Origin: an uncultured Lentisphaeria bacterium
GTDB taxonomy: Bacteria; Verrucomicrobiota; Lentisphaeria; JABSQK01; JAJFLO01
Direction: 5' to 3'
NCBI GenBank assembly: GCA_951812855.1
Contig: OX638337.1
Location: 1,770,001-1,802,000 of the forward strand
DNA: 32,000 bases
Below the pieces are notes generated by a model, which saw nothing but the letters and a program-made list of their open reading frames with translations, made no database searches and was not told the DNA's origin. The stretch's first letter is position 1. Each line of letters opens with the position of its first letter. The position numbers were made by a program, and so were the translations under genes. Shown piece after piece: positions 5,589 to 23,141 of the stretch.

Positions 5589-6992
5589 TTACTTTTCATA
5601 GTTAAGGCGTTTGTCCAATGTTGTTCGACTCATCCCGAATACGCGTTGCACCTCAGATTTATTACCCTCACAGTGATCCAGAGCAGATTTTGCAAACATA
5701 TAGTCTATTTTTCTTTCGATAATCTTCGGGTCGTGCCCCTGTTCAATTTCGTGTTTAATTAGAGATTGAATTTTCGAACTTAAATTATTTAAAGAGGGTT
5801 TTACATGGCTGCTGATATTTTTTTTAGGTTGGAGGAGGAGGGTGAATAGTTCAGTTTCCAGGGTTGAGCTTTCAGCACAAACTGCTGCACTTTGCATTAA
5901 TTGGTATAATTCACGAATATTTCCGGGCCATGAATAACTCTGGAGATAATCAATTGCATGGGGTGTTAAAGTCAAGGGAGGAACGTTCAGCAGGATTTGG
6001 AGTTTTGACAGAAAATGTTGTACCAATAAAGGAATGTCTTCAATTCGTTCGCGAAGTGCGGGTAAATCAATCTGACATCCTTTGATTCTATAAAACAGAT
6101 CCTCCCGAAATGTCTTTTTTTCTATCGCTTCTTCAAGATTACAATTTGTCGCTGCAATTATACGAATATCAACATGTAACGTTTCTTCTCCCCCGACCCG
6201 TTCGAATTGACCGTCTTCGAGTACCCGCAATAATTTAGATTGCGTATCCAGGGGCATATCACCGATTTCATCAAGGAACAATGTCCCGCCATCTGCACGT
6301 TCGAAATATCCTGTTCGCTGTTTAAGAGCACCGGTGAATGCACCTTTTTCATGACCAAATAATTCACTGTTTGCAAGTTCCGATGTGATTCCAGCACAAT
6401 TCAATGTGACAAACGGTGTTTTGTGTCGCGGTCCCTGGTTATGAATCACTCTTGCGAGTAACCCTTTACCCGTACCGGTTTCACCCAATATTAGAACTGA
6501 AATAAGATCAGCCGGTGCTATTTTTTTAACACTTTTAATCGCCTTTTTTATACTTACTGACTTCCCGATAATTTCCTGAATTACCGGTTCATTCTGTTCG
6601 TAGTCATTTTCTATTTCAAAAACTGAGAAATCAGATGTTACAATGCTGTCCGGCAGATGTTTTGAAATGGAATCATTCTCTAATTTGAATTCGTATTCAA
6701 GATGACCAAATCGAATGAGATCACCATCTGACAAAGGCTGTTTTGTTTGCTTCTCAAGCCGATTGAATGTGTGGAGCAATCCCTTCTTCTTCCACCATGT
6801 CCCATGTTTGCTTGCTGAATCATATAAACAAAATTCTCCATTTGTTTTTTCTATTACAGCATGAAACCTGGAAATATCGATGTCACCCGAAATCGTGATA
6901 AAACAGGAGCTGCTGCGTCCGATTTCATTCTTACCGTCCTGCAGTACATATTTTTCGGTGGATTTAACTTTCTGAAGAATGCCTTTTTCCAT
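5589..6992 (-). CDS. Sigma-54-dependent transcriptional activator (bEBP) with an N-terminal FHA domain, an AAA+ core and a C-terminal HTH
   Basis: An FHA-like N-terminus spans about aa 20-100 ([24 protein letters not shown]...[12 protein letters not shown]...DGDLIRFG). The AAA+ core shows Walker A GETGTGKG (aa 170-177), an intact GAFTGA (aa 217-222, nt 6327-6344) and Walker [12 protein letters not shown] Fis-type HTH lies at aa ~430-465. There is no receiver domain. Confidence 0.9.
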
Positions 6993-7187: not shown

Positions 7188-8732
7188 TCAATAGATTACA
7201 CCGAGATTACGGATTTCTACTGTTTCAGAATAATTTTCATTCAATGGGTTTGTAAACAATAATTTGAGTATCTGTATGCGTTTCACATCATCTTCCGTAA
7301 AATGACGTGAGTCAAGCTGAGGAAACGATTTTACCATATTTGAAATATTAAAACGAAACGACGTCCATTCACGGTTTACTAATTTTGAATCGTGCAGGCC
7401 TGATTCCAAATTTGCATCATCTAATGTTGAGATACCGGCATAGACACGTGTACCAGAACCGTGCTCCCCTTTGATATCAACCCTGAATTCCAGATTCCCT
7501 TCAACGTTTAGCGGTTCGTTAAACGTGACCATCACACCAACTCCCCACTGCGAATCATACCAGGAGACCTCTATTGCAAGTTTAGTGTTTTCAGGATTGA
7601 CATTTGAACTCAGTATGCCCGTACCAAAAGTTTTCCAATTTTCATCAAAGCGAACAAATGAAAGCTCATCGGTATCATTGACAACCGCATCATTAACCGT
7701 ATCGCTTGCGTTCAATTTGGGAGAATCGCTCAGACTAATATCAATTGCAGAAACCGGTGTATCCGGTTCCGGAATAATCGTTTCAGAATCACTATCCGTC
7801 TGAGTAACGACTAATTGCTGTTCCTCCTGAGAGAGGGCATCCGGTACGTTAATAACCTGAGTAATTGACTTCTGAGGTTTACTGTTGTTACTATTCCGGG
7901 ATAGTGAGAGAATAATAATTGCCATGACGAATAAAAAACTTAGAGGCAAATATAATTTGGAAATTTTGTTGGCATTTTTCGCAATTTTTACCAAGACTAC
8001 CGAGATATCATCTTTTGCCCCGCGCTCTTTTGAGATATCGATAAACTCTTTAGCAATAGACTCAACACCTTTTGTTTTATTATTTTTTAGAATATCTGCC
8101 ACTTCGCTATCACTTAGATGTCTGTTCAGACCGTCAGAGCAAAGCAGGAAAAGGTCATCTGCATTCACTTTTATTTTCGTTGAGTTCAATCGTAAATCTG
8201 ATTTAATGCCGACAGCATTTGTAATCCTGCCTTTTATAATAGAGGGGACCCTGGTTTCATCTTCATATCCCATTTGTGCGGCCATGCTGTGGTCCTGGGT
8301 GAGTCGTTTAAGGGAGTTTCGGCGAAACCTGTAAATCCTGCTGTCACCGGCATGCAATACCTGTGCGGACCCATTTTGTGGTTCCATTATCAATATTGCC
8401 ACTGTAGACCCCATCCCTTCAATATCGTTGGAATGGATTGTTTTGTTAACATCAGAAATTGCTGTTGTTATCGAATCTAAAACATTAAAATGACTGTAAT
8501 TTTGGGCAAATGACTCACATTCATGGGTGATTGAGTTGACGATTAAATCACTTGCCTCTTTACCTCCGGCTGCCCCCCCGATCCCGTCAGCGACACAAAA
8601 AACACCATAATTTTGATCGTACCAACTGGTATGAGAATCCTCATTTTCTGACTTTGTCGCACCTTTTTGGCTGAGGGCAGCACTGTGTTCAATACTGAAC
8701 GGGGAATTTAATAGAGATGTTATAGGATTCAT
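7188..8732 (-). CDS. Membrane-anchored PP2C-family Ser/Thr phosphatase with an extracytoplasmic beta-sandwich (CBM/CIA30-like) C-terminal domain
   Basis: PP2C motifs are present: ENEDSH, FCVADGIGGAAGGKEAS, VLHAGDSRIY, LLCSDGL and GAKDDISVVLVKI. One TM helix lies at aa 260-277 (LYLPLSFLFVMAIIILSL, nt 7902-7955). An acidic S/T/D-rich linker follows, then a ~160-aa C-terminal domain (nt 7191-7664). Confidence 0.9.
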   Translation of the reverse strand: MNPITSLLNSPFSIEHSAALSQKGATKSENEDSHTSWYDQNYGVFCVADGIGGAAGGKEASDLIVNSITHECESFAQNYSHFNVLDSITTAISDVNKTIHSNDIEGMGSTVAILIMEPQNGSAQVLHAGDSRIYRFRRNSLKRLTQDHSMAAQMGYEDETRVPSIIKGRITNAVGIKSDLRLNSTKIKVNADDLFLLCSDGLNRHLSDSEVADILKNNKTKGVESIAKEFIDISKERGAKDDISVVLVKIAKNANKISKLYLPLSFLFVMAIIILSLSRNSNNSKPQKSITQVINVPDALSQEEQQLVVTQTDSDSETIIPEPDTPVSAIDISLSDSPKLNASDTVNDAVVNDTDELSFVRFDENWKTFGTGILSSNVNPENTKLAIEVSWYDSQWGVGVMVTFNEPLNVEGNLEFRVDIKGEHGSGTRVYAGISTLDDANLESGLHDSKLVNREWTSFRFNISNMVKSFPQLDSRHFTEDDVKRIQILKLLFTNPLNENYSETVEIRNLGVIY

Positions 8733-8985: not shown

Positions 8986-9522
8986 TTATGAAAAACATGA
9001 CTGGCACCATGTTTGGAATTGCACCATGTCCATAACCATTATTTTCCGATCATCATTTTTGGTGCGCATTTTTCTAGTTTCCACCGCTTTTTTTAACCAG
9101 TATAACGCCCCCTTTTTCCAACCCTTTCCATCAATTAAGATGATGATCTCTTTTTCCTCCCAACGCTCAATTGCGTTGAGATAAACATAGGGCAATTTTT
9201 CATCTACACTACCGCTAACAGCTTGCCATTTGCACTCTACCCTGCAAAATATATTGTTTTGTGGGTCAGATATTATAAATTCACTCCTACTTAAAGACTG
9301 GGAAGAAGGAGTTGGTACATGTTCAGTTTCAGCAACTTTATAAATTGATATATATGGTGCATTTTTAATCAGGTATCTCTGTTTTTTTTGTGCTTGTGTT
9401 AGTTTTATCCATTCACGATAGGGTATAATATCAAACCCTCTTGGTATTAGAGCGTTGCTAACAACCCCCTCAAGAATTTTCCCAGATTTATTGGCGTTTG
9501 AACCTTGACTAGGCATTGTCAT
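8986..9522 (-). CDS. Putative type II restriction endonuclease (PD-(D/E)XK fold)
   Basis: The 178-aa ORF has a candidate catalytic motif D86...E96-C-K98 (SEFIISDPQNNIFCRVECKWQ) followed by GSVDEKLPY. Its ATG overlaps the stop codon of the upstream methyltransferase gene (ATGA at 9519-9522), implying translational coupling. The family and specificity are not recognisable by eye. Confidence 0.55.
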   Translation of the reverse strand: MTMPSQGSNANKSGKILEGVVSNALIPRGFDIIPYREWIKLTQAQKKQRYLIKNAPYISIYKVAETEHVPTPSSQSLSRSEFIISDPQNNIFCRVECKWQAVSGSVDEKLPYVYLNAIERWEEKEIIILIDGKGWKKGALYWLKKAVETRKMRTKNDDRKIMVMDMVQFQTWCQSCFS

Positions 9523-10130
9523 CTAACTTTAATGCAAGTGCCATGCACTTTGAAATGTGTTTTGAATTTTTTATATTGTTCACCAAAATAAAAAAACACC
9601 TGACCCCGTGTGTTGTTGCTGACCACCTTATGATCGGTGTTCCAAAAACTAATACGATGATGGGTCAAGCACAACCCATTACAGCGGGCGATGATTGCCT
9701 GAAACCAACGTGTTTCTGTGGCGTTATTAGTCAAAATAATACCTGATTGTATATGCCCTGTCTTGTATTCATTTAGATACTTATTGACACAATCAATGAT
9801 TAACTTGGCTGAGTAGGGTGGGTTCATAAAAACAGAGACCCGTTTTGCTACTGCCCAGCTTTGATTTAACCCATTAGTATCCTCATTAAAATAATATTTT
9901 GCTTTTACGATTTTATTTGCCTGCGGACTTGAAAAAGGATCCAATATAATCTGTCCCATCACTGATTTCGCACTTTCTATATACTCTTCTGGCGTGAACC
10001 AGGCATCGCTCTTTCGATTATGACTAGGAGTGCGTCCGATATAGCCAAGACGATTTTTATTGGCTATACTCCTAGTCACTGGATTAGGACATGAGCGATG
10101 ATTAAATGTGGATATGGTATTGTCTTGCAT
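9519..10130 (-). CDS. DNA N6-adenine methyltransferase of the phage Dam-like family (small, single-domain)
   Basis: The 203-aa ORF shows WFTPEEY, ILDPFSS and catalytic motif IV NPPYS (aa 103-107, nt 9810-9824). This order is typical of the small phage-type Dam family (WxTP ... DP ... NPPY). The target sequence is unknown. Confidence 0.8.
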   Translation of the reverse strand: MQDNTISTFNHRSCPNPVTRSIANKNRLGYIGRTPSHNRKSDAWFTPEEYIESAKSVMGQIILDPFSSPQANKIVKAKYYFNEDTNGLNQSWAVAKRVSVFMNPPYSAKLIIDCVNKYLNEYKTGHIQSGIILTNNATETRWFQAIIARCNGLCLTHHRISFWNTDHKVVSNNTRGQVFFYFGEQYKKFKTHFKVHGTCIKVR

Positions 10131-10232: not shown

Positions 10233-13200
10233 TTACTGATCACGAATAGCTGTTGCCATTTTAGATACATCAGTTTGAGATTGACTGTTTAATTCCAATA
10301 TTCCAAATGTTGAAGGATTTCGAGATTTAAATCCCGGGGAGGATGAAATCAAGGTTTTTTTATCCCGATCAGAATCTGCAACAACAATATTAAATCCCAA
10401 CTGATACTCGGGGAAAAAATTTGCTTCCTTCTCATTATAAGGAGTATTAAAAAATTGTTCGTCAGAATCGGAATAAAGGACTCTGTTTTTTCCCATTGAT
10501 ACGGTTTTATTGTTGTAGAGCACCGGGAATGGAATTTCTATTTCCAAAGTATAACCATCAACTGATTTCGATGCGGCTGTTTTTATTTCCCGATTTAAAT
10601 CTGTACTCATTAACGGTATTGATACTGTGGTTTCAGGGGAATTTTTATCAAAATCACCCGGATTTACAAGTAATAAAAAGTCATCGCCGGACATAACACT
10701 TTCTGTAAAATCTTCAGACAACTGTAAATCCAGCCACAGTTCAATATGATCACGATCTTTAACACCGGCCGTCACATTTGTTTCGCTGAGATCTAAATCA
10801 AAAACCCGAAATGCCCAATAAATATAATCTTTATTCCACGCACTATAGTATTCGCATGAAATTGTGTCATTGACAGATTCTTTTTCTGTCAAATTTGATG
10901 TTGTTGACATTACAGCCGGTTCTAAATGTTGCCAATCTTTCAGATTACCATCAACCGATATCAACTGATTGGATTGATAAGAAACAAATCGTGTTAATTC
11001 AGTTTCCGAATTCCTCCATCGTAATAAATTCTGCGGCAATTTTTTTTCTTTGTGAAGATTCATATAAGACATAAATGAATCAATGACAATTCCCCCAAAT
11101 GCATTTTGATTGGTGTAATGATTTGTAACTAACTGAAGTTGCTCTTCCATTGATTTCCAGCCTTCTTCATAAAATGTATTATGTCGAAAAAAATGAATAC
11201 CATCGGCGAAATTTCCAGTTTGATTTGCAATTATCGTTTTTTTAGATACCTGGTTTGCAAATTTTATACAGTTCTCAGACGAATTAATAATTGAAAGGGC
11301 GTTATCATAATAATCTGATAAAATTGTGTAATCAACAATAGAAATAATCTCCTCCAATAACTTCAAATCTGTATTCATTTCACGTGAAAGCATGAAACTT
11401 AATTTGAAATTCTGACCTGGGAATGTCGCAATAAGACCGTTGATTTTTTTTAGCAAAATTAATAAGTTTTCCTGAAACGCCTTGTCACCAGCGATTTGAG
11501 CTGACTGATCTGCATTGAGACCAATTAATAAGCCTTCTATTTTTTGAGCATCCCGGGTTAATTCGTTAAACTCCAATATGCTGCGTATTTGCCGATGTAT
11601 TTCAGAATGTAAGTCTTTTGATGACCAATCCTCTTTGATCATGAAGAGATTTGGAGAAATCTCCTTAGTTTTACATTCATTCAGGAACTGGATTAGGAGA
11701 TTTTCGTTCCGTGAATCTTTAATAAAATAATGATCCGGATTATGGGTTAAAACAAATACAGTATCAATTGCAGCTGTTTCACATAATGAAAATAAATGAC
11801 GCTTTATGATCGGATATAAAACGGGATTTACATCTCTGATTATTAACCCTCGGGAAAGTACAGCATTAGACTCTGCTTCAGGATAGATTACATCATTGCC
11901 TATTTTATCTGACAGGAACATTAGGTCATCTATATAAACAACACCTTTTCCGATATTGTTAAAGGAAAAATTCAGGGAAATAACCTGACTTACGTCGTGC
12001 TCGGTTTTGACTAAATCTAAAGGGAAAATTATTTCCTGCCACTCTCGCGTGATTCCCTTAGGCAAAAAATACTCAGCCTGACCTAATGATATTAGCTGGG
12101 AATCAGATTTTTCGTTTTTATTGGTCACAGTTACTTCGAAGCTTTCATTCCCGACAGTGCCTTTTACCCAGAGTGAGAGCGTTGCGTATTTTTCAAGATT
12201 AAGCTCGTCGAACCGATAGATTAAATCACACATGCCGGCGATCTTATGATCATAAGATACTTTCATGGACATACCACGCTCGCCCTTGAAATATTCAAGA
12301 CTCTTTTTCGGGAGGATAAAATTCGGAGACTGTGCTGCAATTTCAATCCCGTTATTCAATGATAAATCGTTAAAATCGTCAATCAATTTATGACTGTTAT
12401 AATGAATTATTTCAGAAAATAATTTTGAGATGTCATGTCTTAATCTGTCCATGCTACCGGTTTTCACCGGTAATTGATTTAACCTTTCCCCCAATGCTGA
12501 TATTTCAGCAAAAAACAGAAGCTGATCATCCTTGATATCATGTTTGTTTAACGATTTCGGATAGTGATTCTGCAGATATAATAACTCTTTTCGGCATAGA
12601 GATTCAATCCAGATGATATCGTTTGTTGTAATACTTGATACGGAAATGTCCTGATAATTTTCAAAAATATTCCAGGCCAGATCAAAGTCATTACGATTAT
12701 ATCCTGAGAACGGTATTTTTTTCAAATGCCCAAACATATATGTATCTAAATCCCGTCTCAGTTCAGGTTCGGATTTTAAGTCAAAGTCCTGGAGGATCGT
12801 ATTTCTAAAATCAACCATATCCTGAATATTATTTCCTTTTTGGGTAATAATATTTTCACTTATACTTACGATGTGTTCATACACCAGATTCCCGAGTTTA
12901 GACAGATAAAGGAGACGGGTCGACTCAGCCAAACCGGCCTCTGTAATTACCTGGATTCGATGATAAAGAGCAGCCAGGCTGATTAACTGCTGTTCATTTG
13001 CAGTGCCCTGTAAAACAGTCTTAAATTCCGCAATCAAACCGGAGGATTGATTTTGTAAAAAAGAGTCAATAAACTGATAATAATCCTCTGATCTATTCAG
13101 CACATCATCAATAAAAAATTCATTCGGCTTATTTGCCTTTATCTGTTTCAAAGAGAACTTCAGAAACTCGATTGAATCCTGTGGATTACGATTCGCGATC

Positions 13201-16200
13201 ATCGCCATGCTTTCATACCAGGGATCCAGTTTATACCGATAATTATAAATCTGATTCAGTTTATCCGAATCATTTCTTAATGAATGAACTCCCATAAAGC
13301 CCAGCACGAAAGTCAGTGTCAAAAAACTGTATCTGAGAACCTTCATTGTCCAGTCAAATCGTGACGGAACCGGAATGAGATTTGTAATCGGTGTATCAAA
13401 TGATTCAGAGGTATTTCCCCGAGATTTCAGGCGGGATAATTTTCGTAAATTTTTTGAAATTTCACGGCGACATCCAACGACATTTGAATACCGGCTTCCG
13501 GGATCGGGGTGAAGCATTTTTTCAAAAATTTTCAGCGTTCCGGAATCAAACGGGTGATTTAATTTCGGCACCCACCACTTTGCCCCCTTTTTCTTTACCC
13601 ATGAACTTCGTTTAACACACAATTTTTCCCAGTTTGATTCCGGCAGTCTCCATGGATAGGCAGATTGTCCGTTTAAGGTTTCAAACAAACAGAGCCCCAG
13701 ACTGAATATATCTGTTCTGACATCGCCTCTTTCACCGGTTATAATGATTTCCGGTGCCATATATTCGGGTGTTCCGGGAATTGCACCATTTGTACTCTCA
13801 CCCGTATTATCCTTAGCAATTCCCAGATCCAACAGTATGGGAACATCATCATCGTTTATGAATAAATTATCCGGTTTAACATCTCGATGAATAAACCCAT
13901 TCTTATGGCAATGCTCAACGGCTGACAGGTATCCCAGAAACCACCTGAGACCTCGTTCGACATCAATTTTATAGTCGTTCTCCACATCTTCAATTGCATT
14001 TTTGAGAGTCATTCCCCGGAGATATTCCATGACTAACAAAGGTGGACGCTGAATGGTTACATCCATTTGATTGTGGTCTGAGGCGACGTCAATGAATTTT
14101 ACAATATTTTTATGTCGTAAAGATTTTAATATTTTAGATTCATCATTTGCTCGTTCTATAGCTGATTTACGTTTTGAAAAAGATGCATTTTCTGTTCTCT
14201 TACTTACTTTTTGAGGGAACAGTTCATCCTTCAGGCTCTTCATTACAACACTGTCACCGTTACTTAATTGTCTGGCTTTATGAACATCTGCATGTCCTCC
14301 CGTTTCAACAATCTTTTCCAGATATTCATAATGATCATTTGAACCAATAACCACATTGCCAAATTTTTTGTCAATAAGCTTTGCATTGACTAACGATTCC
14401 AGGCGATTAATCGTCTCATTAAGGGCTTTTGGTTGACTTAACATTTTCAAAAGAATCCGGCTGAGTTCCGGTAAACTTGATAATAATAATTCTTTATCGA
14501 GTTCCGGTAACGTAATGTCATCGTTATCTGAATATTCATGTGCATGCCTGCGAAAATGTTTCAAATAGTCTGACGACAAATTATCAGGCGAAAAAATAAC
14601 GATCAACAGTTCGGCAACTCTCCTGATATCCTGCAGCTGATTCTGAATCAGTGACTCATCAGAGCAGCTGTTCAACGTCGAATGCCTAATCAAAATGTCA
14701 TTATTGAGATGCTCGAAAATAACAATTGAATGATGTGTCAGATTCCCGTGATAAAGTCGAAGCGAATGAATCATTTTAAGTTTGTTCAAAATCGCCTTTA
14801 AGACATTGAGAATATCTATAATATGATTTTGCTTAATGTGATTTTTAATAAAATCAGGTAAGAAAGTATGGTTTGTTATTGGATCAAAAACCGCCCATGA
14901 TTTGTTTGTTTTTATATCAGTAATGACCGATTGCGGCAGTCTCAGGTGATTCTCAAGTTGCTTAACAGATGTCAGTTTTTTGAGAATTTTCGTCCGATCA
15001 TCTAAATTTGAATCGGTTACATCCTCTAAAAAAACTATTTTCGGATTACTATGGTTTTTATTTAGAATGATTGACATCACCTTTGCCGCATCATTCTGAA
15101 TTAATTGATAATTCGGATAGCAATCCTTAACACGGTCCAGTAAGTGATCTAAACGACTTGCTTTGGATAAACATTTATTTATAAATTGAGCGTTTGCTTT
15201 TTTACCAGTTTCAGAAACTGCCCGACTATTTTTTACCCGGACCTGAGTTAACAGCTCATTGAGACCTTCCAGTACGTCTGAAAATGTTCTATAACGACAT
15301 TCCCGCACCCAGGCAAACCCCGCCTTAATATGGTGAATTAGTTCTTCATTCATACTCTTTACAGTTTCACCATCATAATCTACCGGTTGATTGAAACCGA
15401 ATGCTGCTGTCGGATAGAATTTTAGAATTTGACCGAGACTGAATCGCTGGGTCCGTTTCCTGGCTAAGCAACGTGTTACAAACGTCCTTAGCTTAGGATT
15501 ATTCTGGAAAACTTCATTCGAAAAATCAGTATTTTCTTCATTGTACGATTTTGCCCACTCTAATAATTCCAGAGGCGTATATGTCTTTAGTTCCGGAATC
15601 GGATTTTTACCGGTAATTGTTTCGTAAAAACACACACCAAAACTAAAGATATCCGATTCTTCATCCCCCCTGTTTGATGACGAATAGAATAATTCAGGGG
15701 CTATATAACCATAGGTGCCCGCAGCTAATCCGGAATCTGCTGTGGCTGTACCGTCTTTTTCAGTGGCAATTGAAAAATCTGTCAACTTTAATGTTCCGTC
15801 ATCACATATGAAGATATTGCTCGGTTTAACATCTCGATGGATAATCTTTTTTTCGTTTATTCTGTGAGCATAGTGAAGTGCCTTTGCACATTGGATAAAA
15901 ATGTTTATTGCATCTTCGAGGGGCACATTGTTAACACGGCTTAATTCTTCTTTCAGAGTATTGCCGTTGAGCCACTCCATGACAAGGAAATCACGGACAA
16001 TCCCACTCTGAGTTGCTCGAATACATGACGTGGCAGAAACAATACTCTCATGCTTGAGATTGATTGGGTAGGCTTCTTTTTTGAGAGATGCGTTATATTT
16101 CAATCGTTTTAATGCAACTCTATTACCTGTCTGCTTATCTTTTGCCTCAAAAACATCACCGAAACTACCGGACCCGATACATTCACCAATGCTGAAAATT

Positions 16201-16223
16201 TGTTCGATATCGATTACAGACAT
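10233..16223 (-). CDS. Giant (1996 aa) transmembrane receptor with tandem Ser/Thr protein kinase domains and a ~1000-aa carbohydrate-binding-type ectodomain
   Basis: Kinase 1 spans aa ~10-270 with GSGSFGDV, VALK (K39), HRD at aa 129-131 (nt 15831-15839), DFS at 149-151 (nt 15771-15779) and GYIAPE. A degenerate kinase-like segment lies around aa 380-560 (LRLYHGNLTHHSIVI). Kinase 2 spans aa ~632-905 with VVMK, HRD at 779-781 (nt 13881-13889), DLG at 799-801 (nt 13821-13829) and PEYMAPE. A TM helix lies at aa ~962-982 (nt 13278-13340). The ectodomain has a beta-sandwich CBM/CIA30-like module (aa 1318-1440), a glycoside-hydrolase-like alpha/beta region (aa ~1455-1745) and a CBM9-like C-terminus (DGNLKDWQHLEP...YIYWAFRVFD...DHIELWLD, aa ~1750-1975). 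Confidence 0.9.
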   Translation of the reverse strand: MSVIDIEQIFSIGECIGSGSFGDVFEAKDKQTGNRVALKRLKYNASLKKEAYPINLKHESIVSATSCIRATQSGIVRDFLVMEWLNGNTLKEELSRVNNVPLEDAINIFIQCAKALHYAHRINEKKIIHRDVKPSNIFICDDGTLKLTDFSIATEKDGTATADSGLAAGTYGYIAPELFYSSSNRGDEESDIFSFGVCFYETITGKNPIPELKTYTPLELLEWAKSYNEENTDFSNEVFQNNPKLRTFVTRCLARKRTQRFSLGQILKFYPTAAFGFNQPVDYDGETVKSMNEELIHHIKAGFAWVRECRYRTFSDVLEGLNELLTQVRVKNSRAVSETGKKANAQFINKCLSKASRLDHLLDRVKDCYPNYQLIQNDAAKVMSIILNKNHSNPKIVFLEDVTDSNLDDRTKILKKLTSVKQLENHLRLPQSVITDIKTNKSWAVFDPITNHTFLPDFIKNHIKQNHIIDILNVLKAILNKLKMIHSLRLYHGNLTHHSIVIFEHLNNDILIRHSTLNSCSDESLIQNQLQDIRRVAELLIVIFSPDNLSSDYLKHFRRHAHEYSDNDDITLPELDKELLLSSLPELSRILLKMLSQPKALNETINRLESLVNAKLIDKKFGNVVIGSNDHYEYLEKIVETGGHADVHKARQLSNGDSVVMKSLKDELFPQKVSKRTENASFSKRKSAIERANDESKILKSLRHKNIVKFIDVASDHNQMDVTIQRPPLLVMEYLRGMTLKNAIEDVENDYKIDVERGLRWFLGYLSAVEHCHKNGFIHRDVKPDNLFINDDDVPILLDLGIAKDNTGESTNGAIPGTPEYMAPEIIITGERGDVRTDIFSLGLCLFETLNGQSAYPWRLPESNWEKLCVKRSSWVKKKGAKWWVPKLNHPFDSGTLKIFEKMLHPDPGSRYSNVVGCRREISKNLRKLSRLKSRGNTSESFDTPITNLIPVPSRFDWTMKVLRYSFLTLTFVLGFMGVHSLRNDSDKLNQIYNYRYKLDPWYESMAMIANRNPQDSIEFLKFSLKQIKANKPNEFFIDDVLNRSEDYYQFIDSFLQNQSSGLIAEFKTVLQGTANEQQLISLAALYHRIQVITEAGLAESTRLLYLSKLGNLVYEHIVSISENIITQKGNNIQDMVDFRNTILQDFDLKSEPELRRDLDTYMFGHLKKIPFSGYNRNDFDLAWNIFENYQDISVSSITTNDIIWIESLCRKELLYLQNHYPKSLNKHDIKDDQLLFFAEISALGERLNQLPVKTGSMDRLRHDISKLFSEIIHYNSHKLIDDFNDLSLNNGIEIAAQSPNFILPKKSLEYFKGERGMSMKVSYDHKIAGMCDLIYRFDELNLEKYATLSLWVKGTVGNESFEVTVTNKNEKSDSQLISLGQAEYFLPKGITREWQEIIFPLDLVKTEHDVSQVISLNFSFNNIGKGVVYIDDLMFLSDKIGNDVIYPEAESNAVLSRGLIIRDVNPVLYPIIKRHLFSLCETAAIDTVFVLTHNPDHYFIKDSRNENLLIQFLNECKTKEISPNLFMIKEDWSSKDLHSEIHRQIRSILEFNELTRDAQKIEGLLIGLNADQSAQIAGDKAFQENLLILLKKINGLIATFPGQNFKLSFMLSREMNTDLKLLEEIISIVDYTILSDYYDNALSIINSSENCIKFANQVSKKTIIANQTGNFADGIHFFRHNTFYEEGWKSMEEQLQLVTNHYTNQNAFGGIVIDSFMSYMNLHKEKKLPQNLLRWRNSETELTRFVSYQSNQLISVDGNLKDWQHLEPAVMSTTSNLTEKESVNDTISCEYYSAWNKDYIYWAFRVFDLDLSETNVTAGVKDRDHIELWLDLQLSEDFTESVMSGDDFLLLVNPGDFDKNSPETTVSIPLMSTDLNREIKTAASKSVDGYTLEIEIPFPVLYNNKTVSMGKNRVLYSDSDEQFFNTPYNEKEANFFPEYQLGFNIVVADSDRDKKTLISSSPGFKSRNPSTFGILELNSQSQTDVSKMATAIRDQ

Positions 16224-16440
16224 AATTTTGGAATGGATAACTGAAATAAAATTAGATTGAAAATTTTTTTACGCAGATTGAGTACTCTATACCCGATTGA
16301 ACTCATCAACCAGTAATTAAATTATTACTGATGTCAATACCCTTAACTTACATTGTTATAATAACTAACTAAACATGTTGGAGAGCAAAAAGAAAACACT
16401 AATAAATAGAATCGGAAATTTGTCAATCCAATCTCATCAA

Positions 16441-16462
16441 TACCTGGACAATTGTTCAGGTA
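16441..16462. promoter_or_regulatory. A 22-bp near-perfect palindrome TACCTGGACAATTGTTCAGGTA in the divergent kinase/lepA intergenic region
   Basis: The two arms are complementary at 10 of 11 positions; the exception is a G/T at 16447/16456. The site lies 218 bp upstream of the kinase ATG (minus strand) and 167 bp upstream of the lepA ATG. The central 2-nt spacer makes an RNA hairpin unlikely, so a dimeric protein binding site is more plausible. Confidence 0.3.
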
Positions 16463-16628
16463 TTGAGCAGATTTTTGAAAACCATTAATGAAATACACTT
16501 AACAAATTTCCAGTTAAAACTAATTGCGGAGACGTGATGACACAGTAGATTACAATTCTTTTCAATCATTCAGCCGCACCTTAATTTACGAACATAATTA
16601 TCCGGCAAATACCAGCGTTGTCACACGA

Positions 16629-18428
16629 ATGAACAGTCATATTAGAAATTTTTCAATCATTGCTCATATCGATCATGGTAAGTCCACATTAGCCGATCGA
16701 TTTCTACAATTTACAAAGAGTATTGATGAGCGTAAATTTCAGGATCAGCTTCTTGATGATATGGATCTGGAACGAGAGCGGGGAATAACAATTAAATCGC
16801 ATCCGGTAGTCATTTCATATACAGCAAAATCAGGAGAAACATACTCACTGAATTTCATTGATACTCCCGGTCATGTAGATTTCAGCTATGAAGTCAGTCG
16901 AAGCCTTGCAGCCTGTGAAGGTGCCCTGTTACTAATTGATGCATCCCAGGGAGTTCAGGCACAAACTGTTGCAAACGTAAATTTGGCCGTCAAAGGCAGT
17001 CTCACTGTCATTCCCGTTATTAATAAGATTGATTTACCTGCAGCGGATATTGATTTATGTACTGAACAGTTAGAAGAAATTTTGGCCATCCCTGCCGAAG
17101 AAGCTATTTTAGCCAGTGCCAAAGACGGTACGGGTGTTGAAGAAATATTCGAAGCAATTATTAAGCGAATTTCACCGCCGGAGGTTAAGAATGATGATTC
17201 GATAAAAGCCTTAATATTTGATTCTGTTTATGACACCTACAAGGGCGTCATAAATTATGTCCGGATCGTTTCCGGACTTATTCGCCGCAATACCATGATC
17301 CGCTATTTCAGCACAGAGATTGTTTCTGAAGTTAAAGAAGTCGGAATTTTTTCGCCACAAATGACTCCAGTAGACGAATTAAGTGAAGGAATGGTAGGGT
17401 ATGTCATTGCAAATATCAAATCTCCTGACGATTCCAAAATAGGTGATACGATTACCAACCAGAAAAATCCATGCACAGAACCGCTTCCCGGCTTCAAGGA
17501 AATCCAGCCGATGGTATTCAGCGGGATTTATCCCATTGATACCGCAGATTATGAAATGCTCAAGCAGAGTATGGCCAAGTTACGATTAAATGACTCTGCA
17601 TTTATTTTCCAACCCGAAACCTCTGCGGCATTGGGATTCGGCTGTCGCTGCGGATTTCTCGGACTGTTACACATGGAAATCATCCAGGAACGTCTCCGCC
17701 GTGAATATAATATGGATATTATTGCAACGTATCCAAGTGTTATCTACCATGTCTATATGAAAGACGGCAGCAAGTTAGAAATCGACAATCCGCTTCACTG
17801 GCCGGACCCAACACTTACCGACCGAATAGAAGAACCCATGGTTAACGCCAGCATTATTTCTCCAACAGACTATATTGGTCCTGTAATGAACCTTATAATG
17901 GAGAAACGAGGATTAAGTTCCGAAACGAATACAGTTGATCAACATCATGTTTTAATGACTGCCGAGCTGCCGCTTCATGAAATCGTTATTGATTTTCATG
18001 ATAAATTAAAAACAATTACCCGAGGTTACGGAAGTATGGATTACGAACCGGGCGATTATCGTGCTGCCAATTTGGTAAAAATGGAAATCAGAGTTAACAA
18101 TGAGCCGGTAGATGCGTTTACGACTATCGTTCATCGGGAACATGCCCACAGCCGTGGGAAATTACTTGCACAAAAGCTTAAAGACATTTTACCCGGTCAC
18201 CTGTTTCAGGTTGCTGTCCAGGCGGTGGTCGGCGGCTCTGTTGTGGCCAGAGAAACTGTCAGGGCTCTTAGAAAAGATGTAACCGCAAAATGCTACGGCG
18301 GAGATATAACGAGAAAGCGGAAATTGCTGGAAAAGCAGAAAGAGGGAAAAAAGAAAATGAAGCAAATTGGTAAAGTCAGTATTCCGCAAGATGCGTTTGT
18401 TAAAGTCCTAAAGACAAATCAGAATTGA
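16629..18428 (+). CDS. lepA: Translation elongation factor 4 (LepA)
   Basis: The ORF shows IRNFSIIAHIDHGKSTLADR (G1), DTPGHVDF (G3), NKIDL (G4) and the conserved LepA C-terminal domain (...AKCYGGDITRKRKLLEKQKEGKK). The track ORF starts at 16524. I use ATG 16629 (MNSHIRNFSII...) because the upstream 35 aa are not LepA-like. Confidence 0.93.
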   Translation: MNSHIRNFSIIAHIDHGKSTLADRFLQFTKSIDERKFQDQLLDDMDLERERGITIKSHPVVISYTAKSGETYSLNFIDTPGHVDFSYEVSRSLAACEGALLLIDASQGVQAQTVANVNLAVKGSLTVIPVINKIDLPAADIDLCTEQLEEILAIPAEEAILASAKDGTGVEEIFEAIIKRISPPEVKNDDSIKALIFDSVYDTYKGVINYVRIVSGLIRRNTMIRYFSTEIVSEVKEVGIFSPQMTPVDELSEGMVGYVIANIKSPDDSKIGDTITNQKNPCTEPLPGFKEIQPMVFSGIYPIDTADYEMLKQSMAKLRLNDSAFIFQPETSAALGFGCRCGFLGLLHMEIIQERLRREYNMDIIATYPSVIYHVYMKDGSKLEIDNPLHWPDPTLTDRIEEPMVNASIISPTDYIGPVMNLIMEKRGLSSETNTVDQHHVLMTAELPLHEIVIDFHDKLKTITRGYGSMDYEPGDYRAANLVKMEIRVNNEPVDAFTTIVHREHAHSRGKLLAQKLKDILPGHLFQVAVQAVVGGSVVARETVRALRKDVTAKCYGGDITRKRKLLEKQKEGKKKMKQIGKVSIPQDAFVKVLKTNQN

Positions 18429-22057: not shown

Positions 22058-22183
22058 TCTACATTTTTACTATCTGGAAACATCTTGAAAACACCCGGTT
22101 TTCTTATTACCGGATTCTAACTAATCAGCCTCATCATCTGAATCATAATCGAAGTTCTTATTCTTGTGTGCTTTGCTAAATAT

Positions 22184-23041
22184 TTATTCATTAACAGTCG
22201 ATTCAGTTTTATCTGCTGTTCCCTCTTCAACGATCGGATCAGTTTCAGAAGATTTTTCTTCAACAGCGGAATCAGCAGCCGTTAGTGGTAAGATTGCATT
22301 TTTAAATTCCGGACCTGAAACAATTTCCAGTTTGGCCAGAATAGATTGTACTTTTTTCTTCAATACATCATCGTTGGATGATGCCAGAATATCGTTTAGT
22401 AATGTAGAGGCTTCTTCAAATTTGTCCGTTAATATGTTGCATAAAACCAATTGAAATTTAGCCTGTTCCAGGAAATAAGGCAGCTTTGCAGCATTTTGCG
22501 AATCATTGATAACAGTGGTGAACTTGTTTCTTGCTTCAGCAAAATTATGTTGTGCCAGATAACAGTTTGCTTCAGCAATTTTAGCTTTTATAGAAAACGG
22601 TTGAGCATCCGGATATTTACTATAAAAATTTTTGAATCCAGAAATTGCATCAATATACTTTTTCAGGCTGAAATCAATTGATGCTTTATAAAATTCAGCG
22701 TCTATAACAGCGGATGTATCAGAATAATCGGCAATAATATTATCCAAAATCTCTCTTTTTTCTGTCGCTTTTTTCTCTAATGATGCCTGGTCAGAAGAAT
22801 CATCGAGTGATATTATCATGGCTTTCTGCAGTTCTGCATAGGCTTCGGCAATATGTAAATCCCGTTTATTTTTATTCACAATTGTCATTGTTGTAATGAT
22901 AATTCCGACAATAACAATTATAATAATCGGTAAGATTAAGGGTTTAATATTGAGTATAAAACGCTCAAGTTCCAACTCAAAATTAAATGGTTCATCCGGA
23001 GCATTTCTTGTTCCTGCTCCAACGTTATCAGGCGATGCCAT
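22184..23041 (-). CDS. Membrane-anchored TPR-like protein (YfgM/TPR_21-like), function unknown
   Basis: The 285-aa ORF has a single N-terminal TM helix (PLILPIIIIVIVGIIITTMTIV), then a helical repeat region (..AEANCYLAQHNFAEARNKF..) and an acidic tail. The product assignment is tentative. Confidence 0.65.
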   Translation of the reverse strand: MASPDNVGAGTRNAPDEPFNFELELERFILNIKPLILPIIIIVIVGIIITTMTIVNKNKRDLHIAEAYAELQKAMIISLDDSSDQASLEKKATEKREILDNIIADYSDTSAVIDAEFYKASIDFSLKKYIDAISGFKNFYSKYPDAQPFSIKAKIAEANCYLAQHNFAEARNKFTTVINDSQNAAKLPYFLEQAKFQLVLCNILTDKFEEASTLLNDILASSNDDVLKKKVQSILAKLEIVSGPEFKNAILPLTAADSAVEEKSSETDPIVEEGTADKTESTVNE

Positions 23042-23141
23042 ATAGGTTCTCCATACTGATTTAGATTTTAAGTTTTAGTCCGAATACGTAAAAGAATAGA
23101 TTCAATTTATAAAATAACAATCGCGACGACTATATATCAAC

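What the first reader, a model, noticed from the sequence alone, without database searches (positions are those of the whole stretch)
10233..16223. Tandem-kinase receptor with non-canonical DFG motifs, a pseudokinase-like spacer and a three-module glycan-type ectodomain
Seen in sequence: there are two complete Hanks kinase domains in one polypeptide. Both keep the VAIK-type Lys, the alphaC Glu, HRDxKxxN and APE. Both replace DFG, with DFS in domain 1 and DLG in domain 2, and domain 2 has a degenerate Gly loop (ETGGHADV). Between them lies a kinase-like segment with the catalytic loop mutated (YHGNLTHHS). After one TM helix come about 1000 extracytoplasmic residues: a helical region, a CBM/CIA30-like sandwich, a glycoside-hydrolase-like alpha/beta region and a CBM9-like domain. 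Established knowledge: bacterial receptor STKs usually have one kinase domain with PASTA, PQQ or TPR sensors, and tandem-kinase proteins are best known from plant immunity. Inference: one domain may regulate or prime the other, and the sensor probably recognises a polysaccharide.
Basis: partly seen in the sequence, partly recalled or inferred. Interest (0 to 1): 0.7.

Follow-up and report, generated by a model that had tools for sequence, protein, structure and literature searches.

The report
Bacterial kinase–pseudokinase–kinase glycan receptor
This is a real 1996-residue membrane receptor from an uncultured Verrucomicrobia bacterium: inside the cell it has two intact Ser/Thr kinase domains flanking a dead kinase domain, and outside it has a carbohydrate-binding cassette built around an inactivated glycosidase-like barrel, and it probably signals through a neighbouring phosphatase and a phosphothreonine-reading sigma-54 activator.

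Summary
ORF 10233..16223 (-) encodes 1996 aa with two Hanks kinase domains. K1 aligns with PknA and K2 with PknB, and every catalytic residue is in register. The spacer is a full pseudokinase: hhalign gives 95% probability against the protein's own kinases, and its AlphaFold model (pLDDT 75) matches only kinase or pseudokinase structures among the listed hits. It has lost the catalytic Lys and both Asp (HRD→HGN).

One TM helix follows, then a helical region, a CBM11/30-like sandwich, a TIM-barrel glycosidase-like module and CBM9. The sandwich–barrel–CBM9 cassette also occurs as free-standing proteins (about 2000 relatives). In this receptor both candidate catalytic Glu of the barrel are replaced (N1570, Q1668), so it probably binds but does not cut.

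The ORF is not a mis-assembly: colinear orthologs exist at 68% and 36% identity, plus a fourth, more distant member (P0123).

The DFG emphasis is overstated. DLG is a common variant, and the 68% ortholog has DFG there. DFS is invariant in the family but keeps the metal-binding Asp.

New context: a membrane PP2C and an FHA-sigma54 activator are conserved downstream. In one relative, rpoN and a Tad pilus cluster follow. The Dam/nuclease pair next to the kinase is a lineage-specific insertion.

Verdict: a rare new variant of receptor Ser/Thr kinase. All evidence is computational.

The parts
10233..16223 (-). Whole receptor gene, 1996 aa (K1 - linker - pseudokinase - K2 - TM - ectodomain)
   Evidence: ORF. 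Identical protein P0001 and colinear orthologs P0002 and P0003.
15414..16202 (-). Kinase domain 1 (residues ~8-270): GSGSFG, K39, E50, HRDVKPSN, DFS149-151, APE. The beta3-alphaC segment is 8 residues shorter than in PknA.
   Evidence: Pfam Pkinase 11-268. Alignment to PknA at E 1.8e-27. 62% identical between 36%-identity orthologs, making it the best-conserved part. DFS is invariant.
15171..15413 (-). Linker (residues ~271-351) with no recognisable family
   Evidence: No Pfam hit. Poorly conserved in alignment A1.
14340..15170 (-). Pseudokinase domain (residues ~352-628): no Gly loop; IVFLE in place of VAIK; HGN492-494 in place of HRD; S499 in place of the catalytic-loop Asn; H514-S-T in place of DFG; conserved C-terminal 'PELSRILL' helix.
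   Evidence: hhalign against the protein's own kinase domains: probability 94.9%, E 4.7e-8. A profile search of PDB returns 430 matches at E<1, and all 60 listed are kinases. AlphaFold2 pLDDT 74.9, pTM 0.75, with kinase secondary-structure order. Foldseek gives 1210 PDB hits at E<=1e-3, topped by Pan3 and the JAK2 JH2 pseudokinase.
13434..14339 (-). Kinase domain 2 (residues ~629-930): ETGGHA loop, K662, HRDVKPDN, DLG799-801, GTPEYMAPE, and an insertion of about 15 residues between beta3 and alphaC.
   Evidence: Second Pfam Pkinase stretch. Alignment to PknB at E 4.4e-21. The 68% ortholog has DFG here.
13347..13433 (-). Juxtamembrane segment (residues ~931-959) with invariant F942, T944 and T947 (T947-N-L-I fits the pT-x-x-I/L type); candidate FHA docking site.
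   Evidence: Invariant columns in A1 and sequences. The docking role is inferred and untested.
13281..13346 (-). Single transmembrane helix (residues ~960-981)
   Evidence: The only hydrophobic peak in the protein. A TM segment lies at the equivalent position in P0002, P0003, P0123, P0004 and P0005.
12399..13271 (-). Membrane-proximal all-helical extracytoplasmic region (residues ~985-1275), family unknown
   Evidence: AlphaFold2 predicts 12 helices at pLDDT ~60-80. No Pfam hit. In the exhaustive search only the orthologs covered this region.
11904..12395 (-). CBM11/CBM30-like beta-sandwich (residues ~1277-1440)
   Evidence: Pfam CBM30 at 19.8 bits, below the cut-off. Homologous modules in relatives score up to 111.8 bits for CBM30 and also hit CBM_11. 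The low-confidence model matches CBM11 structures at TM 0.5.
11034..11903 (-). TIM-barrel glycoside-hydrolase-like module (residues ~1441-1730) with the family's conserved acidic motifs lost: LD[VI]EP reads I-G1568-L-N1570-A; VETQD reads N-Q1668-T-G-N; AIHxY reads V-I-D1715-S-F.
   Evidence: Alignment with 28 relatives. The family profile hits PDB 10yv 'Putative GH97 from Cellulomonas fimi' at E 9e-18 and, weakly, the GH18 catalytic strand. The model matches CBM+TIM-barrel glycosidases.
10287..10955 (-). CBM9-like domain (residues 1757-1979)
   Evidence: Pfam CBM9_1 E 1.1e-8, 35.6 bits against a cut-off of 23.4.
7188..8732 (-). Partner PP2C phosphatase (514 aa), membrane-anchored (TM ~260-278), with a conserved extracytoplasmic domain of ~235 aa from no known family
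   Evidence: Pfam PP2C_2. TM and C-terminal domain are conserved in three genomes. It lies downstream of the kinase in the three orthologous loci, and P0004 and P0005 have a PP2C immediately upstream.
5589..6992 (-). Partner FHA - sigma54-AAA+ - HTH_8 enhancer-binding protein (467 aa)
   Evidence: Pfam FHA, Sigma54_activat and HTH_8. Walker A GETGTGK and GAFTGA217 are present, as are FHA residues G25-R26 and S41-x-x-H44. It follows the receptor in all four family loci.
8986..10130 (-). Inserted Dam-type methyltransferase (9519..10130) plus PD-(D/E)XK nuclease (8986..9522). This pair is not part of the signalling module.
   Evidence: Pfam Dam and PDDEXK_11, with weak DpnII similarity. The pair is absent between kinase and PP2C in the 68% and 36% orthologous loci.

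Best explanation
The gene encodes a single-pass receptor Ser/Thr kinase. The N-terminal 960 residues are cytoplasmic and the C-terminal ~1000 residues are extracytoplasmic. The cytoplasmic part is an ordered array: kinase 1, a catalytically dead pseudokinase, and kinase 2. Both kinases are RD-type with all catalytic residues and conserved activation-loop threonines, so both are predicted to be active.

The outside part is a helical stalk followed by a cassette taken from a widespread family of free-standing secreted proteins: a CBM11/30-like sandwich, a TIM-barrel glycosidase-like module and CBM9. In this lineage the barrel has lost both candidate catalytic glutamates, so it most likely binds a glycan without cleaving it.

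Proposed mechanism (inferred). Glycan binding in the periplasm changes the oligomeric or conformational state of the receptor. The pseudokinase acts as a scaffold or allosteric partner for the two kinases, much as JH2 does for JH1 in JAKs. The kinases phosphorylate each other's activation loops and juxtamembrane threonines. The FHA domain of the co-encoded sigma-54 enhancer-binding protein reads these phosphothreonines, or is itself phosphorylated, and switches on sigma-54 promoters. The co-encoded membrane PP2C resets the system.

Shown here: the domain architecture, the state of the catalytic residues, the conserved gene linkage and the loss of the hydrolase motifs. Inferred: the ligand class, the activity of both kinases, the role of the pseudokinase, the kinase-to-FHA link and the regulon.
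For: Two kinase domains with complete catalytic residues, aligned to PknA and PknB. Both are far better conserved than the rest of the protein (62% and 53% against 25-28% between the 36%-identity orthologs). K1-type and K2-type domains keep their positions in P0123 and P0004-6. The pseudokinase is supported by profile and fold evidence. The TM helix is conserved in position. The ectodomain cassette is homologous to about 2000 proteins, including free-standing 730-805 aa proteins with CBM30/CBM11 and CBM9. The barrel family matches a solved putative glycosidase and the GH18 catalytic strand. The motifs D-x-E-P and E-T-Q-D are kept in the free-standing proteins and in P0123 but are replaced in all three Verrucomicrobia orthologs. 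The order kinase, PP2C, FHA-sigma54 EBP is conserved in three genomes down to 36% identity. The EBP also follows the receptor in the fourth member, where rpoN and a Tad/Flp pilus cluster with an FHA-bearing ATPase come next. The EBP has GAFTGA and the FHA phosphothreonine-binding residues.
Against: Nothing has been tested experimentally, and all sequences come from MAGs or metagenomes. The catalytic residues of the barrel family are assigned from conservation and a weak GH18 alignment, not from biochemistry. The ectodomain model is poor (pLDDT 52). K1 has a Ser in DFS and an alphaC region shortened by 8 residues, and in P0123 K1 lacks a Gly loop and reads DFD, so K1 may be weakly active or regulatory. 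No sigma-54 promoter was detected in the window or upstream of flp in L012. The PP2C is not adjacent in the P0123 locus. The TM segment of the window protein is only moderately hydrophobic (KD 1.37).
Confidence: 0.6

Rival explanations
1. Only K2 is the working kinase. K1, like the middle domain, is mainly a regulatory, docking or decoy module, as in kinase-pseudokinase pairs of plant tandem kinases or JAKs. The protein would then effectively be one kinase with two regulatory kinase-fold domains.
For: K1 carries DFS instead of DFG in all orthologs, and DFD in P0123, where its Gly loop is also lost. K1 has an 8-residue deletion before alphaC. The NCBIfam and Pfam matches are generic.
Against: In the window protein K1 has a perfect GSGSFG loop, K39, E50, HRDVKPSN, the D of DFS, and APE. 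K1 is the most conserved part of the whole protein (62% identity at 36% overall), including an invariant activation loop with T159, T161 and T170. That pattern suggests constraint on catalysis or on being a substrate.
Confidence: 0.2
2. The extracytoplasmic part is an enzyme rather than a sensor: a membrane-anchored glycoside hydrolase whose activity is coupled to the kinases.
For: The barrel belongs to a family with strongly conserved acidic motifs and matches a solved putative glycosidase and GH18 chitinases. It is flanked by CBMs, as in real glycosidases.
Against: In the window protein the conserved D-x-E-P reads G-L-N-A, E-T-Q-D reads Q-T-G-N, and the conserved His reads Asp. The 68% and 36% orthologs are also degenerate at these sites, though in different ways. 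Only the distant member P0123 keeps the motifs.
Confidence: 0.07
3. The kinase is part of an anti-phage defence island, working with the adjacent Dam-type methyltransferase and PD-(D/E)XK nuclease (MADS-like, BREX-PglW-like or PD-T4-6-like).
For: PADLOC models mad6 (346 bits) and PD-T4-6 (301 bits) and NCBIfam MADS6 (203 bits) match the kinase domains. A methyltransferase and a nuclease lie immediately downstream.
Against: The NCBIfam scores are far below the curated cut-offs (203 against 460 for MAD6; 111 against 990 for PglW), which marks them as generic kinase similarity. The methyltransferase/nuclease pair is absent from the orthologous loci, where PP2C follows the kinase directly. The protein has a TM helix and a 1000-residue glycan-type ectodomain, and its conserved partners are PP2C and an FHA-sigma54 activator.
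Confidence: 0.03
4. The long ORF is an assembly or gene-fusion artefact joining two kinase genes.
For: None was found.
Against: The identical ORF is on several contigs, including one of 1.95 Mb. Colinear orthologs of 1996 and 2004 aa exist in other MAGs, and the 2516-aa P0123 has the same domain order. The middle region is itself a conserved, folded pseudokinase.
Confidence: 0.01

Closest known systems
PknB/PknA-type bacterial receptor Ser/Thr kinases (Hanks type; kinase - juxtamembrane - one TM - extracytoplasmic sensor), with a PP2C partner (PstP/PrpC) and FHA-domain readers (GarA, FhaA)
   Same: Same topology. The closest solved kinase domains are PknA and PknB. A PP2C is co-encoded, and so is an FHA-domain protein that could read phosphothreonine.
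   Different: Three kinase-fold domains instead of one. There are no PASTA repeats (NF033483 scores 271 against a cut-off of 450). The sensor is a CBM / dead-glycosidase / CBM9 cassette. The FHA reader is fused to a sigma-54 AAA+ activator. The PP2C has its own extracytoplasmic domain.
Eukaryotic kinase-pseudokinase tandems: JAK JH2-JH1, GCN2, plant tandem kinase proteins (WTK1/Yr15, RPG1, Sr62)
   Same: Kinase-fold domains in tandem in one chain, one of them catalytically dead. The pseudokinase model's best structural matches include JAK2 JH2, GCN2 and Pan3. A regulatory role for the dead domain is the natural hypothesis.
   Different: No specific sequence relationship was found: the fold matches have TM ~0.5 and 11-18% identity. 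The order here is kinase-pseudokinase-kinase, with two apparently active domains. The protein is a membrane receptor, whereas plant TKPs are soluble and have no receptor domain (PMC8761531, PMC6170490).
Bacterial pseudokinase families in the Atlas of bacterial STKs (bioRxiv 10.1101/2025.01.12.632604), e.g. the 'GLW' family, which lacks Lys, HRD-Asp and DFG-Asp
   Same: The middle domain likewise lacks all three catalytic-triad residues. Relatives carry 'GLWHGN' at the catalytic loop (P0005).
   Different: I could not establish identity with the GLW family, because neither its sequences nor its logo were available to me. My term searches of the Atlas main text found no mention of tandem or two-kinase-domain proteins.
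Free-standing CBM30/11 - TIM-barrel - CBM9 proteins (e.g. P0121, P0122, P0124, P0125, P0127) and the solved 'Putative GH97 from Cellulomonas fimi' (PDB 10yv)
   Same: The receptor's ectodomain residues ~1277-1990 are homologous over the whole cassette (E down to 1e-198).
   Different: Those proteins have no kinase and keep the conserved D-x-E-P, E-T-Q-D and His motifs, which the receptor has lost.
Bacteroides hybrid two-component systems and other periplasmic oligosaccharide sensors
   Same: Functional analogy only: a large periplasmic glycan-binding domain controls transcription.
   Different: The signalling chemistry is unrelated (His-Asp phosphorelay against Ser/Thr kinase, FHA and sigma-54). 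No homology was tested or claimed; this comparison rests on my own knowledge.

Membership tests
Hanks-type Ser/Thr protein kinase (Pfam PF00069), domain K1 | Gly-rich loop, beta3 Lys, alphaC Glu, HRDxKxxN catalytic loop, metal-binding Asp of DFG, and APE | tested here: met
   GSGSFG17-22, K39, E50, HRDVKPSN129-136, D149 (as DFS) and APE175, in register with PknA at E 1.8e-27. Pfam E 9.5e-84 for the two domains together. The Gly of DFG is Ser, and beta3-alphaC is 8 residues shorter.
Hanks-type Ser/Thr protein kinase (Pfam PF00069), domain K2 | The same catalytic residues | tested here: met
   K662, the alphaC Glu in 'NDESKIL', HRDVKPDN779-786, D799 (as DLG; DFG in P0002) and APE823, in register with PknB at E 4.4e-21. 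The Gly loop is E-T-G-G-H-A, against PknB's G-F-G-G-M-S.
Pseudokinase (kinase fold lacking catalytic-triad residues) | Protein-kinase fold | tested here: met
   hhalign probability 94.9%, E 4.7e-8. AlphaFold2 pLDDT 74.9 / pTM 0.75. Foldseek gives 1210 PDB hits at E<=1e-3, and the 50 listed are all kinases or pseudokinases at TM ~0.5.
Pseudokinase (kinase fold lacking catalytic-triad residues) | Loss of the VAIK Lys, the HRD Asp and/or the DFG Asp | tested here: met
   The beta3 strand reads K-I-V-F-L-E with no conserved Lys. HRD reads H492-G-N494. DFG aligns to H514-S-T. ATP binding is not testable here.
PASTA kinase (NCBIfam NF033483, Stk1/PknB) | Whole-protein score above the cut-off, and extracellular PASTA repeats | tested here: not met
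   271.5 bits against a cut-off of 450, with the match confined to the kinase domain. No PASTA hit in Pfam.
Plant tandem kinase proteins (TKP) | Soluble protein made essentially of two kinase-fold domains, without a TM or receptor domain | tested here: not met
   This protein has tandem kinase-fold domains, but also a TM helix and a 1000-aa ectodomain. It is bacterial. The TKP definition is taken from PMC8761531 and PMC6170490 (titles and abstracts only).
Defence kinases: MADS MAD6 (NF047741), BREX PglW (NF033442) | Score above the curated cut-off, and conserved linkage to the other genes of the system | tested here: not met
   203 against 460 bits and 111 against 990 bits. The adjacent methyltransferase/nuclease pair is absent in orthologous loci. 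The PADLOC hits are generic kinase matches.
CBM9 (Pfam PF06452) | Score above the gathering threshold | tested here: met
   35.6 bits against 23.4 at residues 1757-1979. Homologous modules in relatives score up to 87 bits. Ligand-binding residues were not examined.
CBM30 / CBM11-like beta-sandwich | Score above the gathering threshold, or fold match | tested here: inconclusive
   19.8 bits against 27 in this protein. The homologous module in P0121 scores 111.8 bits. The CBM11 fold match (TM 0.5) comes from a low-confidence model.
TIM-barrel glycosidase-like family (relatives of PDB 10yv; GH18-like beta4 strand) | Homology of the alpha/beta module to the family | tested here: met
   A profile of the three orthologs finds family members at E down to 1e-198. 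The family profile hits 10yv at E 9e-18.
TIM-barrel glycosidase-like family (relatives of PDB 10yv; GH18-like beta4 strand) | Conserved acidic motifs D-x-E-P (beta4) and E-T-Q-D, and the conserved His (putative catalytic set) | tested here: not met
   The window protein reads G1568-L-N1570-A, Q1668-T-G-N and D1715. P0002 and P0003 are also degenerate at these sites, while P0123 and the free-standing proteins keep the motifs. The catalytic role of these residues is inferred.
Sigma-54 enhancer-binding protein with FHA input domain (partner gene 5589..6992) | AAA+ Sigma54_activat domain with GAFTGA, an HTH, and an FHA domain with pThr-binding residues | tested here: met
   Pfam FHA, Sigma54_activat and HTH_8. 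GETGTGK170, GAFTGA217, G25-R26 and S41-x-x-H44 are present. Phospho-dependent binding is not testable here.

The most novel reading that the evidence does not exclude
This is a bacterial counterpart of pseudokinase-gated receptors. A kinase-pseudokinase-kinase array has the dead central domain allosterically coupling two active Ser/Thr kinases. A glycosidase turned into a glycan-binding pseudoenzyme drives it from outside. A phosphothreonine-reading FHA-sigma54 activator provides the output, in at least one lineage controlling Tad/Flp pilus genes. The receptor would thus use a dead enzyme on each side of the membrane.
Probability: 0.3. Interest if true: 0.75.

Novelty: new variant of a known kind. 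Interest (0 to 1): 0.55.

Why it matters
Bacterial Hanks-type kinases are mostly studied as single-domain enzymes with PASTA, TPR or beta-propeller sensors. This family would give a bacterial system in which to ask how a pseudokinase regulates neighbouring kinases, a question so far studied in JAKs, GCN2 and plant immune tandem kinases. It also shows a receptor built by capturing a whole secreted glycosidase cassette and inactivating it, which suggests a route by which new sensors arise. Finally it links Ser/Thr phosphorylation directly to sigma-54 transcription through an FHA domain. The conserved three-gene module (kinase, membrane PP2C, FHA-EBP) is small enough to reconstitute. The limits are that the family is rare, known only from uncultured PVC-group bacteria, and characterised here only by computation.

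Tried and rejected
1. The word-index homology search with the ectodomain alone and with the spacer alignment returned nothing, not even the protein itself. I treat this as a tool limitation, not as evidence. The exhaustive HMMER search and local HMM searches replaced it.

2. Pfam on the isolated spacer, the helical ectodomain region and the PP2C ectodomain gave no hits, even at E<=10.

3. I tested whether the PP2C ectodomain is related to the kinase's beta-sandwich. There is no HMM or BLAST similarity, so I dropped the idea.

4. Sigma-54 promoter consensus scans of the window and of the P0123 locus were at chance level (18 found against 20.6 expected; 24 against 23.7). No site lies upstream of flp, so no regulon can be named.

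5. Sigma-70 promoter and terminator scans across the operon were not above chance, so the operon structure is unresolved.

6. I could not establish whether the spacer is the Atlas 'GLW' pseudokinase family.

7. Literature searches for bacterial tandem or dual kinase domains found only plant and eukaryotic papers.

The scan with the full alignment found only two close fragments (85% and 92%), and the rest were generic kinases.

9. The full ectodomain AlphaFold model is of low confidence (pLDDT 52). I used its fold matches only as weak corroboration.

Full report
**1. The observation**

The window holds a 1996-codon ORF on the minus strand at 10233..16223. Pfam finds two Pkinase domains (combined E 9.5e-84), a CBM9_1 domain at 1757-1979 above its gathering score, and a sub-threshold CBM30 match at 1346-1436. 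There is a single hydrophobic segment, at residues ~960-981.

**2. Is the ORF real?**

The identical protein (P0001) is listed on four contigs, one of 1.95 Mb, and I read two further contigs of 23 and 13 kb that carry it. Full-length colinear orthologs exist in two other MAGs titled 'Verrucomicrobia bacterium': OFTM167 at 68% identity (1996 aa) and OFTM198 at 36% (2004 aa). A fourth, more distant member (P0123, 2516 aa; MAG GCA_021772615.1) turned up through the ectodomain search and has the same domain order. The fusion or artefact explanation is rejected.

**3. The two kinase domains**

K1 aligns with M. tuberculosis PknA (E 1.8e-27) and K2 with PknB (E 4.4e-21). The Gly loop, beta3 Lys, alphaC Glu, HRDxKxxN, the Asp of DFG and APE are all in register. 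K1 has an 8-residue deletion between beta3 and alphaC, and K2 has an insertion of about 15 residues there.

Between the 36%-identity orthologs, K1 is 62% identical and K2 53%, against 25% for the spacer and 28% for the ectodomain. Both kinase domains are therefore under strong constraint.

In 140 kinase domains from the proteins fetched here (a biased sample), DFG occurs 113 times, DLG 12 times and DFS 3 times. The 68% ortholog has plain DFG in K2. K2's ETGGHA loop is close to PknB's own GFGGMS. DFS in K1 is distinctive: it is invariant in the three orthologs and reads DFD in P0123. It keeps the metal-binding Asp.

**4. The spacer is a pseudokinase**

Pfam sees nothing in residues 272-628. However, P0004-P0006 and P0123 carry the same module just before their last kinase domain: 'LWHGDL', 'GLWHGNI', 'NIWHGNLSPDNIVI...FFLDPAL', and a shared 'PELSRILL' helix.

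A seven-sequence profile of the module matches the protein's own kinase domains by hhalign at 94.9% probability (E 4.7e-8), from beta5 through the catalytic loop to the DFG position. Against PDB sequences it finds 430 matches at E<1, and the 60 listed are all protein kinases. An AlphaFold2 model of residues 352-632 has pLDDT 74.9 and pTM 0.75, with the secondary-structure order of a kinase. Foldseek returns 1210 PDB matches at E<=0.001, led by the Pan3 pseudokinase, the JAK2 JH2 pseudokinase, GCN2 and Abl, at TM ~0.5 over ~280 columns.

The domain has no Gly loop and no beta3 Lys. HGN replaces HRD, Ser replaces the catalytic-loop Asn, and H-S-T sits at the DFG position. By the usual definition (as used in bioRxiv 10.1101/2025.01.12.632604) it is a pseudokinase. 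The cytoplasmic part is therefore kinase - pseudokinase - kinase.

K1-type and K2-type domains keep their relative positions in P0123. P0004-6 have the order K1-type, K1-type, pseudokinase, K2-type. The array therefore predates the divergence of these lineages.

**5. The ectodomain**

An exhaustive HMMER search with a profile of residues 985-1996 found 2014 proteins at E<=0.001. The membrane-proximal ~290 residues matched only the orthologs and have no Pfam hit. AlphaFold2 predicts them as all-helical at moderate confidence.

The remaining ~700 residues match free-standing proteins of 730-805 aa over their whole length (E down to 1e-198). In Pfam these proteins carry CBM30/CBM_11 at the front and CBM9 at the end, with an unannotated middle module that hits GH18 weakly.

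A profile of that middle module hits the solved 'Putative GH97 from Cellulomonas fimi' (PDB 10yv, E 9e-18). It also hits, weakly, the catalytic beta4 strand of GH18 chitinases. Even the low-confidence whole-ectodomain model retrieves CBM-plus-TIM-barrel glycosidases and CBM11.

**6. The barrel looks inactivated**

Across 28 relatives the barrel has strongly conserved motifs: DG-x-x-LD[VI]EP, which resembles the acid/base strand of GH18 and clan GH-A enzymes; VETQD; TFYEEGW; and AIHxYxSY.

| Protein | D-x-E-P motif | VETQD motif | AIHxY motif |
|---|---|---|---|
| Window protein | I-G1568-L-N1570-A | N-Q1668-T-G-N | V-I-D1715-S-F |
| 68% ortholog (P0002) | G-L-E-S | N-Q-T-G | not recorded |
| 36% ortholog (P0003) | N-P-D-L | C-R-T-G | not recorded |
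| P0123 and free-standing proteins | kept | kept | kept |

The most economical reading is that a glycosidase-like cassette was captured as a sensor and that, in the Verrucomicrobia lineage, its catalytic machinery decayed while the fold and the flanking CBMs were kept. That would make it a binding pseudoenzyme. The catalytic assignment is inferred, not demonstrated.

Simpler receptors of the form kinase - TM - CBM9 (615-817 aa) also exist. A CBM9 sensor on a bacterial kinase is therefore not unique in itself.

**7. Genomic context**

On the same strand, downstream of the receptor gene, the window has four genes:

- a Dam-type methyltransferase (9519..10130);
- a PD-(D/E)XK nuclease with weak DpnII similarity (8986..9522);
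- a PP2C phosphatase (7188..8732);
- an FHA - sigma54-AAA+ - HTH_8 enhancer-binding protein (5589..6992).

In the 68% and 36% orthologous loci the PP2C follows the kinase directly and the EBP follows the PP2C. The methyltransferase/nuclease pair is absent there, so it is a lineage-specific insertion and not part of the system.

The PP2C has a strong TM helix (residues ~260-278) and a conserved ~235-aa extracytoplasmic domain of no known family. The EBP has Walker A, GAFTGA and the FHA Gly-Arg / Ser-x-x-His residues.

In the P0123 locus the receptor is followed by the FHA-EBP, then rpoN itself, then Flp pilin, RcpC, a secretin, an FHA-bearing TadA-type ATPase and TadB. P0004 and P0005 each have a PP2C immediately upstream.

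The receptor's conserved partners are thus a PP2C and a phosphothreonine-reading sigma-54 activator. One locus hints at Tad pili as an output, but consensus sigma-54 promoters were not detected.

**8. Mechanism**

Shown: topology, architecture, the state of the catalytic residues, the gene linkage and the decay of the hydrolase motifs.

Inferred: a periplasmic glycan binds the CBM / dead-barrel / CBM9 cassette. This changes receptor association or conformation through the helical stalk and the TM helix. The pseudokinase scaffolds or allosterically couples K1 and K2. Both are RD kinases with invariant activation-loop threonines, and they phosphorylate each other and the juxtamembrane threonines (T944 and T947 are invariant, and T947-N-L-I fits the FHA pT-x-x-I/L preference known from PknB-type systems; that preference is from my own knowledge). 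The EBP's FHA domain docks or is phosphorylated, and sigma-54 transcription is activated. The membrane PP2C resets the system. I put about 0.6 on this overall picture: higher on the architecture, lower on the pathway.

**9. Rivals**

- K1 as a mainly regulatory domain (0.2). DFS/DFD, the short alphaC segment and the loss of the Gly loop in P0123 speak for it. The perfect catalytic set and the very high conservation of K1 in the window protein speak against it.
- An enzymatically active ectodomain (0.07), contradicted by the motif losses.
- An anti-phage defence kinase (0.03). The NCBIfam MAD6 and PglW scores are far below their cut-offs, the PADLOC hits are generic, and the RM-like pair is not conserved.
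- An assembly artefact (0.01).

**10. Comparison and novelty**

It works like a PknB-type receptor kinase with PP2C and FHA partners. As a Hanks kinase it passes every membership test. It is not a PASTA kinase, not a plant-type tandem kinase and not a defence kinase.

Bacterial proteins with several kinase domains are common in metagenomes: 37 of the 120 best hits have two or more. However, I found no description of them, or of a kinase-pseudokinase-kinase receptor, in the searchable literature.

The family itself is rare. Four sequence clusters have the full architecture and three have the K-K-pseudokinase-K variant. A scan of JGI metagenomes found only two close fragments.

I rate it a new variant of a known kind. 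It is interesting to specialists for three things: a pseudokinase between two kinases, a pseudo-glycosidase sensor, and the FHA-sigma54 output. It is computational only, and it comes from uncultured organisms.

Noticed in passing
window 8986..10130 (-): A Dam-family N6-adenine methyltransferase (203 aa) overlaps by 4 bp a PD-(D/E)XK nuclease (PDDEXK_11, with weak DpnII similarity). The pair is inserted between the kinase and PP2C genes in this genome only, and it looks like a small type II restriction-modification module. GATC is not depleted against base composition (122 observed, 111 expected) but is lower than a Markov estimate (159).
   Followed up: partly
window 7188..8732 (-); L003 15715-17274; L004 16084-17889: The partner PP2C phosphatase is itself a membrane protein: TM at ~260-278, then a conserved ~235-aa extracytoplasmic domain ('NWKxFGxG...RVYAGxSTLDDANLE...LKLLFT') with no Pfam hit and no similarity to the kinase ectodomain. 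Both the kinase and the phosphatase may therefore sense something outside the cell.
   Followed up: partly
L012 15568-23551 (locus of P0123, GCA_021772615.1): Directly after the related receptor come an FHA-sigma54 activator, rpoN, and a Flp/Tad pilus cluster (Flp pilin, RcpC, secretin, a TadA-type ATPase carrying an FHA domain, TadB). This is a possible output of the pathway. No consensus sigma-54 promoter was found upstream of flp.
   Followed up: partly
window 16437..16466; L003 8805-8830: A perfect 13-bp-arm palindrome (TCAATACCTGGACAATTGTTCAGGTATTGA) lies in the divergent kinase/lepA intergenic region. The 68% ortholog's equivalent region has a different palindrome with the same core (TGAACAATTGTTCA). 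It could be an operator or activator binding site, but it cannot be assigned to either gene.
   Followed up: partly
proteins P0004-P0040: Many bacterial metagenome proteins carry two to four kinase-like domains, combined with TPR, WD40, FGE-sulfatase, FHA and other modules (for example P0019 with four kinase-like regions, and P0012 and P0013 with three). Multi-kinase proteins seem to be an under-described class in bacteria.
   Followed up: no
proteins P0216, P0222, P0227, P0244: These are single-kinase receptors of 615-817 aa with one TM helix and a C-terminal CBM9 domain (one also has TPR repeats). They are a simpler kinase-plus-CBM9 receptor type related to the ectodomain end of this protein.
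   Followed up: partly
window, whole: Palindromic tetranucleotide biases are strong. CTAG occurs 4 times (111 expected from composition) and GCGC 5 times (42 expected), while CCGG is enriched (146 against 42).
   Followed up: no
window 16524..18428 (+): The LepA (EF4) ORF as listed starts at a TTG and is 634 aa, while the ortholog in L003 is called at 600 aa. The true start is probably about 34 codons further downstream.
   Followed up: no
window 19889..24131: A 722-aa TPR protein, a 285-aa TPR protein and a MauE-family membrane protein are syntenic with the 68% ortholog's locus (L003). Their relation to the receptor is unknown.
   Followed up: no
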